64,000 nucleotides of DNA from Escherichia coli (GTDB lineage: Bacteria; Pseudomonadota; Gammaproteobacteria; Enterobacterales; Enterobacteriaceae): assembly GCF_024298765.1 (NCBI RefSeq), contig NZ_CP101210.1; one strand, written 5' to 3'. Made by a program: the position numbers. This document shows positions 12,001 to 15,000 of the stretch, piece by piece. The stretch's first letter is position 1, and every line of letters starts with the position of its first letter.

Positions 12001-15000
12001 TTATGAACAACCGTCGCATGGAGTGCGGACGCGGTAAGGGGCTTGGCGGGTCATCACTGATCAACGGCATGTGTTACATCCGTGGTAACGCGCTGGATCT
12101 CGATAACTGGGCGAAAGAACCCGGTCTGGAGAACTGGAGCTACCTCGACTGTCTGCCCTACTATCGCAAGGCCGAGACTCGCGATGTGGGCGAGAACGAC
12201 TACCACGGCGGTGATGGCCCGGTGAGCGTCACCACCTCCAAACCCGGCGTCAATCCGCTGTTTGAAGCGATGATTGAAGCGGGCGTGCAGGCGGGCTACC
12301 CGCGCACGGACGATCTCAACGGCTATCAGCAGGAAGGTTTTGGCCCGATGGATCGCACCGTCACGCCGCAGGGCCGTCGCGCCAGCACCGCGCGTGGCTA
12401 TCTCGATCAGGCCAAATCGCGCCCTAACCTGACCATTCGTACTCACGCCATGACCGATCACATCATTTTTGACGGCAAACGCGCGGTGGGCGTCGAGTGG
12501 CTGGAAGGCGACAGCACCATTCCGACCCGCGCGGCGGCGAATAAAGAAGTGCTGTTATGTGCAGGCGCGATTGCTTCACCGCAGATCCTGCAACGCTCCG
12601 GCGTCGGCAACGCTGAACTGCTGGCGGAGTTTGATATTCCGCTGGTGCATGATTTACCCGGCGTCGGCGAAAATCTTCAGGATCACCTGGAGATGTATCT
12701 GCAATATGAGTGCAAAGAACCGGTTTCCCTCTACCCTGCCCTGCAGTGGTGGAATCAGCCGAAAATCGGTGCGGAGTGGCTGTTTGGCGGCACCGGCGTT
12801 GGTGCCAGCAACCACTTTGAAGCAGGCGGATTTATTCGCAGCCGTGAGGAATTTGCGTGGCCGAATATTCAGTACCATTTCCTGCCAGTGGCGATTAACT
12901 ATAACGGCTCGAACGCAGTGAAAGAGCACGGCTTCCAGTGCCACGTCGGATCGATGCGCTCGCCAAGCCGTGGGCATGTGCGGATTAAATCCCGCGACCC
13001 GCACCAGCATCCGGCGATTCTGTTTAACTACATGTCGCACGAGCAGGACTGGCAGGAGTTCCGCGACGCAATTCGCATCACCCGGGAGATCATGCATCAA
13101 CCGGCGCTGGATCAGTATCGTGGCCGCGAAATCAGCCCCGGCGCGGAATGTCAGACGGATGAGCAGCTCGATGAGTTCGTGCGTAACCACGCCGAAACCG
13201 CGTTTCATCCGTGCGGTACCTGCAAAATGGGTTATGACGAGATGGCAGTGGTTGACGCCGAAGGCCGCGTACACAGGCTGGAAGGCCTGCGCGTGGTGGA
13301 TGCGTCAATTATGCCGCAAATTATCACCGGCAATTTGAACGCTACGACGATTATGATTGGCGAGAAAATGGCGGATATGATTCGCGGGCAAGAAGCGTTG
13401 CCGAGGAGCACGGCAAGATATTTTGTGGCAAATGGGATGCCGGTGAGAGCGAAAAAAATGAGTCGTGATGTGAACTAACTCAGGAACCTATCAGATTGAG
13501 AGTTACCGTTCTACTATGAGGACCGAATCCTTATATAAAACACTGAGGTAACTCTCATGCTTCATATCCGCAGTCCCGCCATCAAACTTTAAGCCGATTC
13601 GCTCAATCTGGCGGATGATGGTGCTATGGATACGCTGATAAACCACAAGTGTAATGCCACTCAGCTTAAGAATCACGCAACCAGTGCTCCTGGCTAGGGT
13701 TACTTGTTCTTTCCCACTCCCGGTTAGCAGTGGTCAGCGATCAACTGCGTAAGCCGGGCGTATTTATCCCAAAGCGTGGAGTAATATCAGGTCTACGCTA
13801 AAAAAGTCAATTTATTCGGTTATCATGCACGAAAAGGGGACTTGTGGCGAGTATAAAAATAAGTCAGACCCAAAAACTACGTGGAGCTTTAAACACGGTT
13901 CGTATAATTTATTAGCAGCGATTTATTTTTACCCTTCTTTAATCAGTCATCATGATTAAATATTTTTTATCACAAGATTATCGCTTCTCTAACATTTTAT
14001 TTTTTATTTATTATCAATTGATAAGAAAAAATTGTTAGTACGTTTTTGCAAAAAATTAAAAGTGTTGGAATACACTTAAACAAATGAACAAAAACCAAAC
14101 AAACTGAGATTTGCAATCAGAAAAAATTATTCAAGAGAACATCTCTAATTTATTGGTAGCGTCCATGAACGATGATTTCCTCACAACCAAAAAGTAAAGA
14201 AAATCTTATGATAAGATATATTTGTAAATTAGTATTATTAACGTCAAAGATCTTTTCTTTTCTGCACCCTTACTTTGCAACGCATAAAAAACAAATAAAA
14301 TCAATAATATATGCAGAAAAAGTTATTTTACGTAAAAATAACATTAAATAAATCAAGACTATTGAACATCACTAAAACATTAGACGTAATACACATTCAC
14401 CCCCGCTCCTTGACTCAGGGTTTTAATATTTTTTGTTTCACATCATTGTAGAAAAAATCGCGCATTAAAAATGAGTTGTAGAAAAACCGCACAATAAATA
14501 TTTCATATTTAATCTATTGCGTAGAACTACTATTCAAAAAATCTTATTAATGAGATAATGAAATTACATCGATAACGTTCTGATTGCAGGCACACTTATC
14601 TGGGTGTGCCTCTTTTTTTTACAACTGTACACGGTGGCGTATGACGAGAAAATATCTCACACAGGATGAAGTCTACAGGCTGATGGATGCAGCCCAGAGC
14701 ATGTCCTTTCCTGAAAGAAATCGCTGTCTAATTATGATGGCTTTCATTCACGGTTTTAGGGCCAGTGAACTTCTTGATTTACGTTTATCCGATATTGATG
14801 CATCAGGAAAACAACTTAATATCCGGCGTATTAAAAATGGCTTCTCGACAACACATCCTCTTCTTCCTGATGAATATAATTTGATCAAGTTGTGGCTTAA
14901 GCAGAGGAAGTTAATTGAAAATGGAGTTGAAGGAGACTGGCTTTTTCTCTCCCGGAAACGCCGCCCTATCAGCAGACAACATTTTTTTTCGATCATTCGT

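What the first reader, a model, noticed from the sequence alone, without database searches (positions are those of the whole stretch)
13479..14640. 1.1 kb AT-rich leader upstream of the recombinase with 30-bp-phased direct repeats and a hairpin plus T8 just before the start codon
Two near-identical 18-19 bp direct repeats (14446-14464 and 14476-14493, TTGTAGAAAAA(A/C)(T/C)CGC(G)CA) are spaced exactly 30 bp apart, i.e. on the same face of the helix. A stable hairpin followed by T8 (14588-14620) sits 20 bp upstream of the ATG. A long AT-rich regulatory region feeding a fim-type recombinase resembles the nanC-fimB regulatory region and suggests multi-input or H-NS-type control of recombinase expression. 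The hairpin could be an attenuator or the terminator of an unannotated small transcript.
Basis: seen in the sequence. Interest (0 to 1): 0.4.

Follow-up and report, generated by a model that had tools for sequence, protein, structure and literature searches.

The report
Terminator hairpin in the fimX leader
The gap is the upstream region of the known E. coli phase-switch recombinase gene fimX (ipbA); its one well-supported feature is a terminator-type RNA hairpin just before the start codon, and the rest is a patchwork, so the finding is modest.

Summary
The window is E. coli chromosome: betIBA, a 1162-bp unannotated gap, then ipbA/fimX/hbiF, hyxR, hyxA and hyxB (island PAI-X). Both features sit at the stated coordinates.

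- **Hairpin:** the hairpin plus T8 (14588-14620) is far beyond chance (z -4.7). A paralogous island, whose recombinase is 81% identical, keeps a hairpin and T-run at the same position through three compensatory pair changes. It is therefore a maintained RNA hairpin of intrinsic-terminator form. Only 20 nt separate it from the ATG, so every fimX transcript must read through it. I read it as a leader attenuator/insulator; this is inferred, not shown.
- **Repeats:** the pair is an exact 11-mer at 30-bp spacing, marginal statistically (p about 0.06) and weaker in other lineages.
- **The "1.1-kb AT-rich leader":** it is composite. It holds core betA flank, a repeat remnant, a 90-bp lineage-specific piece, and two blocks no more conserved than neutral sites in fimX. 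Between those blocks lies a 300-bp core only 66-73% identical between lineages.
- **nanC-fimB comparison:** no homology and no NanR or IHF motifs were found; the resemblance is architectural only.
- **Inversion:** no leader inversion occurs in 5,426 genomes.
- **Side finding:** this strain lacks the hyxS switch, so hyxR lies 58 bp after fimX.

The parts
13479..13571 (+). Core-chromosome 3' flank of betA, with an 11-bp-stem inverted repeat (13497-13507 / 13547-13557). Not part of the island.
   Evidence: Collinear with K-12 up to about 13569; inverted repeat I8; present in genomes that lack the island (H64-H72).
13572..13733 (.). Left end of PAI-X, about 50% GC. The stretch 13493-13618 is about 80% identical to DNA at ylbG loci elsewhere in E. 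coli (a repeat remnant). The 57-aa ORF on the minus strand has no Pfam match.
13734..13823 (.). A 90-bp segment found only in the window-type leader lineage.
   Evidence: Absent from the other lineages in alignment A1; found in 85 of 5,426 genomes and nowhere else.
13854..14003 (+). Distal block, 91-97% identical between the three main leader lineages (window-, UTI89- and O78-type). It contains a perfect TATAAT at 13903-13908 without a good -35.
14154..14453 (.). Hyper-divergent AT-rich core, 66-73% identical between the three main leader lineages. It contains a conserved TAAAAT at 14296-14301.
14454..14640 (+). Proximal block, 94-97% identical between the three main leader lineages. This is the likely fimX promoter/5' leader region.
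14446..14464 (+). Direct repeat 1: TTGTAGAAAAAATCGCGCA.
   Evidence: other lineages read (T/C)(A/T)GTAGATAAAAACAC(G/T)CA.
14476..14493 (+). Direct repeat 2: TTGTAGAAAAACCGCACA, starting 30 bp after repeat 1.
   Evidence: other lineages read TT(G/A)TAGAAAAGCTGCACA; the 30-bp spacing is invariant.
14551..14559 (+). Candidate extended -10 element TGAGATAAT, invariant in all lineages. It is a weak prediction and does not exceed chance.
   Evidence: Read from the sequence; score 4.9 against a shuffle maximum averaging 8.1; invariant.
14588..14611 (+). RNA hairpin: 10-pair stem including three U-G pairs, 4-nt loop.
   Evidence: 98% of cells paired and 3 compensatory pairs against the paralog.
14613..14620 (+). 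T8 run (the U-tract of the terminator). The length is lineage-specific: T8 here, TC+T8 in the UTI89 type, TC+T6 in the O78 type.
14633..14637 (+). Shine-Dalgarno-like GGTGG for fimX.
   Evidence: Read from the sequence; inference.
14641..15204 (+). ipbA / fimX / hbiF, a tyrosine-type DNA invertase of 187 aa.
   Evidence: RefSeq annotation of an identical genome.
15217..15232 (+). Single hyxS-type recombination site TGAATCAAAATGTCAG. The roughly 246-bp invertible hyxS element between fimX and hyxR is absent.
15263..16057 (+). hyxR, a LuxR-family regulator, here only 58 bp downstream of fimX.

Best explanation
The last 190 bp or so of the gap is the 5' regulatory/leader region of fimX (ipbA). 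The hairpin plus T-run is an evolutionarily maintained RNA hairpin of intrinsic-terminator form on the fimX strand. Only 20 nt, which include the ribosome-binding site, lie between the T-run and the ATG. Any transcript that makes FimX must therefore start upstream and read through the hairpin.

The most likely role is a leader attenuator/insulator. It would stop most + strand transcription arriving from the fimX promoter, from the AT-rich spacer or from betIBA read-through, and so keep the recombinase at a low level. In this hyxS-less strain it probably also limits hyxR, which sits 58 bp after fimX with no switch promoter of its own.

The two TTGTAGAAAAA copies are A-rich motifs some 95-145 bp upstream of the hairpin. 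They are possible sites for a nucleoid-associated or regulatory protein; each holds an Lrp-like half-site, TAGAAAA. Evidence that they are more than chance is weak.

The remaining 900 bp or so is not one leader. It is core betA flank, a repeat remnant, a lineage-specific insert and a fast-diverging AT-rich spacer that H-NS probably coats.

Shown: the anatomy, the hairpin's stability, covariation with the paralog, and the geometry. Inferred: termination in vivo, the promoter position, and all protein binding.
For: - Hairpin stability: -14.8 kcal/mol with z -4.7 in the window; -12.9 with z -4.2 in UTI89. It is the top terminator-like site of the scan.
- Change within fimX lineages: the only change in the eight-pair core of the stem, seen in several lineages, turns C-G into U-G, which still pairs in RNA.
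- Paralogous island: next to alsS/budB, with a recombinase 81% identical. A differently sequenced 12-pair hairpin plus TTCTTTTTT sits at the same aligned position, ending about 25 nt before the start codon.
- Pair counts on an alignment not fitted to structure: 98.3% of cells pair. Three pairs changed on both sides and four on one side. Every slid control falls to 28-65% paired with no compensatory pair.
- Three U-G pairs in the stem argue for RNA rather than a DNA palindrome.
- Geometry: T8 ends at 14620 and the ATG is at 14641. The FimX N-terminus aligns with that of the paralog at this start.
- Context: hyxR lies 58 bp after fimX with hyxS missing.
Against: - No transcript data were available, and no sigma-70 promoter prediction in the leader exceeds chance (best 7.1 against a shuffle maximum averaging 8.1). 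The promoter position is therefore unknown.
- No alternative antiterminator structure, leader peptide or riboswitch was found. RNAalifold on the proximal block gave a covariation term of -0.16, and Rfam gave nothing above threshold.
- The compensatory evidence rests on a single comparison, with the paralog.
- The proximal block is no more conserved (94-97%) than fimX third-codon positions (95-97%). Conservation within fimX lineages therefore does not prove constraint.
- The Salmonella orthologue STM0716, fimB and three other relatives lack such a hairpin within 160 nt upstream.
- In most lineages the T-run starts three nucleotides after the stem (CUC), which is less ideal for termination.
Confidence: 0.5

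Rival explanations
1. The hairpin ends a separate small RNA encoded in the proximal block (about 14460-14620). fimX is made only by read-through or from the same promoter.
For: The proximal block is 94-97% identical across lineages. Rfam gives a weak, sub-threshold match to the IS102 sRNA model over 14487-14625 (25.8 bits, gathering score 46).
Against: The Rfam alignment is carried by the terminator and AT-rich filler. No covariation supports any fold upstream of the hairpin. No promoter is predicted above chance. The paralog shares the hairpin but little of the upstream sequence. The block is no more conserved than neutral sites.
Confidence: 0.15
2. The hairpin is a 5'-UTR stem-loop that stabilises the mRNA or controls translation rather than terminating. 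The T-run would be incidental or a standby site.
For: It lies 20-50 nt upstream of the ATG. The minimum-free-energy fold of 14570-14640 pairs the 5' flank with the region over the ribosome-binding site.
Against: That larger fold is not significant (z -1.7). A T-run directly after a GC-rich stem is kept in all lineages and in the paralog, which is the terminator signature.
Confidence: 0.1
3. The inverted repeat is a DNA operator for a dimeric regulator, and the direct repeats are further sites for the same or another protein.
For: An 8-bp inverted repeat with an 8-bp spacer lies close to the start codon. AT-rich island DNA surrounds it. TCGATAACGT at 14569 matches the H-NS nucleation motif at 8 of 10 positions. 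The repeats hold Lrp-like half-sites at a spacing of about three helical turns.
Against: Three of the ten stem positions are T-G, which breaks a DNA palindrome but pairs in RNA. The lineage change C to T also spoils the DNA symmetry. The motifs are low in information and the repeats are marginal (p about 0.06). There is no homology to nanC-fimB and no NanR or IHF consensus.
Confidence: 0.1
4. The features are relics or chance with no present function. The hairpin would be a leftover terminator of a decayed upstream gene, and the apparent conservation would reflect recent shared ancestry with fimX.
For: Proximal-block identity equals fimX third-position identity. The repeats are marginal. ORFs in the gap have no Pfam match and are broken by indels in other lineages.
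Against: Compensatory changes keep the hairpin and T-run in a paralog at 81% protein identity, while the neighbouring upstream sequence has largely diverged.
Confidence: 0.15

Closest known systems
nanC-fimB intergenic regulatory region of E. coli (NanR, NagC and IHF inputs to fimB)
   Same: A long (over 1 kb) AT-rich non-coding stretch upstream of a Fim-family tyrosine recombinase gene.
   Different: No sequence homology. No GGTATA NanR repeats and no IHF consensus. GC is 27% here over 13850-14600 against 36%. Only the ends are conserved between lineages. fimB has no terminator-like hairpin within 160 nt of its start.
Intrinsic (Rho-independent) terminators used as leader attenuators or insulators (general class; pyrBI- and trp-type leaders cited from general knowledge)
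   Same: A GC-rich stem-loop followed at once by a U-run, on the sense strand between the upstream DNA and the coding region, so that expression needs read-through.
   Different: No leader peptide, antiterminator alternative or ligand-binding domain was detected. Regulation of read-through, if any, is unknown.
Hairpin plus T-run upstream of fimE in K-12 (GATAGCCACATCACTCCGTGTGTGGTTATC TTTTTATC, 85-115 nt before the start)
   Same: A terminator-like hairpin upstream of another Fim recombinase gene.
   Different: It lies farther from the start codon, leaving room for a promoter downstream. The sequence is unrelated. I could not check its role in the literature.
fimS / hyxS / ipuS invertible promoter switches
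   Same: Same locus and same recombinase family; hyxS normally lies just downstream of fimX (PMC6083910, PMC6458436).
   Different: The leader is not invertible. Two candidate inverted-repeat pairs in the leader, and a third running from the 5' end of fimX to beyond hyxR, show no inverted configuration in any of 5,426 genomes. The same test finds hyxS in both orientations, 1,782 against 16.

Membership tests
Intrinsic (Rho-independent) terminator | Stable GC-rich stem-loop | tested here: met
   Ten pairs, five of them G-C; -14.8 kcal/mol; z -4.7.
Intrinsic (Rho-independent) terminator | U-rich tract immediately 3' of the stem | tested here: met
   C + T8 here; CTC + T6 to T9 in other lineages; TTCTTTTTT in the paralog.
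Intrinsic (Rho-independent) terminator | Structure maintained in evolution (covariation) | tested here: met
   98.3% of cells paired and three compensatory pairs; slid controls 28-65%. The evidence rests on one paralog comparison.
Intrinsic (Rho-independent) terminator | RNA 3' ends at the U-tract in vivo or in vitro | not testable with these tools
   No transcript data available.
Regulated transcription attenuator or riboswitch leader | Promoter upstream of the terminator in the same transcription unit | tested here: inconclusive
   Geometry requires it (20 nt to the ATG), but no promoter prediction beats chance.
Regulated transcription attenuator or riboswitch leader | Mutually exclusive antiterminator structure, leader peptide or known aptamer | tested here: not met
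   RNAalifold covariation term -0.16, with no supported fold upstream; no Rfam family above threshold.
nanC-fimB-type multi-input regulatory region | Sequence homology, or NanR (GGTATA) and IHF sites | tested here: not met
   No blastn alignment longer than 46 nt or above 76% identity at that length; no NanR or IHF consensus matches. NagC was not tested.
nanC-fimB-type multi-input regulatory region | Long AT-rich intergenic region upstream of a Fim recombinase gene | tested here: met
   About 820 bp at 27-33% GC upstream of ipbA.
Invertible promoter switch (fimS/hyxS/ipuS type) | Inverted repeats flanking a segment found in both orientations among genomes | tested here: not met
   No genome carries the inverted form for 13967-14214, 14112-14588 or 14688-16146. 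The positive control, hyxS, gave 1,782 against 16. SVRE sequencing of UTI89 and CFT073 found only fimS, hyxS and ipuS (PMC6458436).
Known sRNA families (Rfam 15) | Match at or above the family gathering score | tested here: not met
   Best match is IS102 at 25.8 bits against 46.
H-NS-silenced horizontally acquired DNA | AT-rich relative to the genome, inside an acquired island | tested here: met
   Island boundaries at about 13570 and 19378 against K-12; 27% GC core.
H-NS-silenced horizontally acquired DNA | H-NS occupancy | not testable with these tools
   No ChIP data for this locus were found in the papers searched.

The most novel reading that the evidence does not exclude
A conserved leader terminator gates expression of the FimX phase-switch recombinase. 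In strains that have lost hyxS it also gates the HyxR regulator. Conditional read-through, or lineage differences in the U-tract (T6, T8, uninterrupted T8), would then set how often fimS and hyxS flip. That would be an RNA-level input to Fim-type phase variation that has not been described.
Probability: 0.25. Interest if true: 0.5.

Novelty: new member of a known kind. Interest (0 to 1): 0.3.

Why it matters
FimX is enriched in uropathogenic E. coli. It flips both the type 1 pilus switch and hyxS (PMC6458436, PMC6083910). I found nothing accessible on how fimX itself is controlled.

A terminator that every fimX transcript must cross would be a simple control point for how often cells switch. 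It could be tested directly with hairpin and U-tract mutants.

The side observation has a practical use. About 70 sequenced genomes have lost hyxS and so place hyxR directly behind fimX. They are natural 'switchless' variants for studying HyxR.

If the hairpin has no effect on expression, the region is ordinary island spacer DNA.

Tried and rejected
1. **Leader as an invertible switch.** I built synthetic 'inverted' junction queries for three inverted-repeat pairs: 13967-82/14199-214, 14112-22/14578-88 and 14688-701/16133-46. None is present in any of 5,426 genomes. The method does detect hyxS in both orientations.
2. **Homology to nanC-fimB or fimB-fimE intergenic DNA.** None was found.
3. 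**Rfam.** Only sub-threshold IS102, CRISPR-DR46, SNORD39 and PhrS hits appeared.
4. **Small ORFs in the gap.** Four ORFs of 44-59 aa have no Pfam match. In other lineages the 13825 ORF loses its ATG or is frameshifted.
5. **Sigma-70 promoter scans.** Nothing exceeds chance.
6. **T-run as a hypervariable contingency tract.** Lengths are mostly fixed within each lineage. Three of twelve UTI89-type loci differ by one T, which could be assembly error. The idea is not supported.
7. **Structured RNA upstream of the hairpin.** No covariation was found.
8. **Hairpin as a family-wide trait.** It is absent upstream of fimB, Salmonella STM0716 and three other relatives.
9. **Similarity of TTCTGATT (14578-85) to the flank of the hyxS site.** An 8-mer match is expected by chance about once (my estimate), so I did not pursue it.
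10. **Literature.** The primary papers were not held: Bateman & Seed 2012, Hannan 2008, Xie 2006 and Bateman 2013. Bryan 2006 was not looked up. An earlier description of the fimX promoter therefore cannot be excluded. Searches on fimX with H-NS, promoter or sRNA, and on Sakai locus tags, found nothing about the leader.

Full report
**Where this is.**
The window is E. coli chromosome. A 1.9-kb query around the finding is 100% identical to many RefSeq genomes, mostly from poultry, pigs and other animals. Their annotation reads betT, betI, betB, betA, a 1162-bp gap with no feature, then ipbA ('also known as HbiF and FimX', 14641-15204). hyxR (15263-16057), hyxA, hyxB and ykgH follow. This is the PAI-X island.

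Comparison with K-12, where betA and ykgH are neighbours, puts the island at about 13570-19378. FimX is a known tyrosine recombinase. It flips the type 1 pilus switch fimS and its own neighbouring switch hyxS, which drives hyxR (PMC6083910, PMC6458436, PMC3789825).

**Checking the observation.**
The hairpin is as described: AGGCACACTT/ATCT/GGGTGTGCCT at 14588-14611, then C, then T8 at 14613-14620, then 20 nt to the ATG. On its own it folds at -14.8 kcal/mol, and none of 200 shuffles is as stable (z -4.7).

The two repeats start at 14446 and 14476, exactly 30 bp apart. They share an exact 11-mer, TTGTAGAAAAA, and then match at 5 of the remaining 8 aligned positions. In simulations that keep the local composition, an exact close repeat of 11 nt or more arises 6% of the time. 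With one mismatch allowed, the 11-mer is not enriched in the window. The hairpin is therefore clearly non-random, and the repeats are marginal.

'AT-rich' applies to 13824-14640 (27-33% GC). The first 345 bp are 42-50% GC.

**The 1.1 kb is a composite.**
- 13479-13571 is core betA flank, shared with genomes that lack the island.
- 13493-13618 is about 80% identical to DNA at ylbG loci, so it is a repeat remnant.
- 13734-13823 exists only in this leader lineage, in 85 of 5,426 genomes.
- The rest differs sharply between leader lineages: window type, UTI89 type, O78 type and an intermediate.

Across four lineage representatives, invariant columns reach 83-93% in a distal block (13854-14003) and 83-97% in a proximal block (14454-14640). 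They fall to 37-73% in the core 14154-14453.

The proximal block is 94-97% identical between the three main lineages. That is no better than fimX third-codon positions, at 95-97%. The striking feature is thus the excess divergence of the core (66-73%), which I cannot explain, rather than unusual conservation of the ends.

**The hairpin is maintained.**
Within fimX lineages, the only change in the eight-pair core of the stem that recurs across lineages turns a C-G pair into U-G. Three of the ten pairs are U-G in this strain. That fits an RNA helix and not a DNA palindrome.

A protein search found a recombinase 81% identical to FimX. It lies in a second, paralogous fimX-hyxRAB-like island next to alsS/budB. 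Its upstream DNA is barely alignable with the fimX leader.

That island nonetheless carries a 12-pair hairpin, CGGGCTGCTCAT/CTC/ATGAGTGGCCCG, followed by TTCTTTTTT, ending about 25 nt before the start codon. It folds at -19.5 kcal/mol with z -6.3.

In a plain MAFFT alignment the two hairpins occupy the same columns. Of the ten pairs, three changed on both sides and four on one side, and 98.3% of cells pair. Sliding the partner strand by one to three columns drops pairing to 28-65% and leaves no compensatory pair. This is one evolutionary comparison, but it is a clean one.

**How it most likely works.**
Only 20 nt separate the T-run from the ATG, and they include a GGTGG ribosome-binding site. 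No promoter fits there, so fimX mRNA must start upstream and cross the hairpin and U-run. I therefore read the element as a leader terminator acting as an attenuator and insulator. It would stop most transcription coming from the fimX promoter, the AT-rich spacer or betIBA read-through, which fits a recombinase needed in tiny amounts.

This step is inferred, and several results caution against it:
- No promoter prediction in the leader beats chance. The candidates are TATAAT at 13903, TAAAAT at 14296 and an invariant TGAGATAAT at 14551-14559.
- No antiterminator, leader peptide or known RNA family was found.
- The T-run length is largely fixed by lineage: T8 here, TC+T8 in the UTI89 type and TC+T6 in the O78 type, with a few variants one T shorter or longer. 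It does not look like a contingency tract.
- The hairpin is not a family-wide trait. fimE has one 85-115 nt upstream, but fimB, Salmonella STM0716 and three other relatives have none.

**The repeats.**
Both copies lie in the proximal block, and the 30-bp spacing never varies. In other lineages, however, the shared core shrinks to about GTAGA(A/T)AAA. Each copy contains TAGAAAA, which fits the left half of the Lrp consensus. That motif carries little information and occurs four times in the leader. I treat protein binding here as a low-confidence idea.

The likeness to nanC-fimB is limited to 'long and AT-rich'. There is no homology and no NanR or IHF consensus. H-NS binding is plausible for 27% GC island DNA, but I could not test it.

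The leader is not itself a switch. Inverted-junction queries for three inverted-repeat pairs found no genome with the inverted form. The same method found hyxS in the UTI89 orientation in 1,782 genomes and in the opposite orientation in 16. Published whole-genome screens of UTI89 and CFT073 overexpressing FimX likewise found only fimS, hyxS and ipuS (PMC6458436).

**Side finding.**
In UTI89 a 329-bp gap separates fimX and hyxR. It holds hyxS: 16-bp inverted repeats TGATTCAAAATGTCAG / CTGACATTTTGAATCA around 246 bp. A third, directly repeated copy abuts the right repeat. The 16-bp length agrees with the literature (PMC6083910).

In this window the gap is 58 bp with a single copy at 15217-15232, so the element is gone. 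About 70 genomes share this exact junction. Both states occur within the window-type leader lineage, and the loss also appears in another lineage. This points to recurrent deletion between the direct copies. In such strains hyxR has no switch promoter and probably depends on transcription through fimX, and hence on the leader discussed here.

**Verdict.**
The locus is known and the gap is ordinary in most respects. The hairpin is a real, maintained terminator-type element in a position that must affect fimX expression. I found no accessible description of it, although the key primary papers were not available. It is a new member of a known kind, of modest interest.

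Noticed in passing
window 15205-15262 (site at 15217-15232); compare L002 19564-19892: The hyxS invertible element that normally lies between fimX and hyxR is absent, and a single recombination site remains. About 70 of roughly 1,890 PAI-X genomes share this junction. hyxS-plus and hyxS-minus strains occur within the same leader lineage, which suggests recurrent deletion between directly repeated sites.
   Followed up: partly
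window 14154-14453: The leader core is only 66-73% identical between E. coli lineages, while the adjacent fimX third-codon positions are 95-97% identical. This excess divergence is unexplained; it could reflect mosaic ancestry or fast evolution.
   Followed up: partly
L013-L015 (recombinase at 3001-3567): A second, paralogous fimX-hyxR-hyxA-autotransporter-like island lies next to alsS/budB in some E. coli. Its recombinase is 81% identical to FimX, and it has its own leader hairpin and a gap of about 290-330 bp before the next gene.
   Followed up: partly
window 13734-13823: A 90-bp segment present in only 85 of 5,426 E. coli genomes, always at this position. Its origin is unknown.
   Followed up: partly
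window 13493-13618: About 80% identical to DNA at ylbG loci in thousands of genomes. It spans the junction between core chromosome and island at about 13570, so the island may have inserted into, or been lost from, a repeated element.
   Followed up: no
window 14688-14701 and 16133-16146: A perfect 14-bp inverted repeat, TGCAGCCCAGAGCA, lies between the 5' end of fimX and the region just after hyxR. No genome shows the corresponding inversion (0 of 1,904).
   Followed up: yes
L006 3424-3461 (K-12, upstream of fimE): A terminator-like hairpin plus T-run lies 85-115 nt upstream of the fimE start codon, reminiscent of the fimX leader element.
   Followed up: no
L039 11106-12543 (O157:H7 Sakai): In Sakai the invertase gene is an annotated pseudogene (ECs_0355) and hyxR is cut to 168 nt, so PAI-X is decaying in this lineage.
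   Followed up: no
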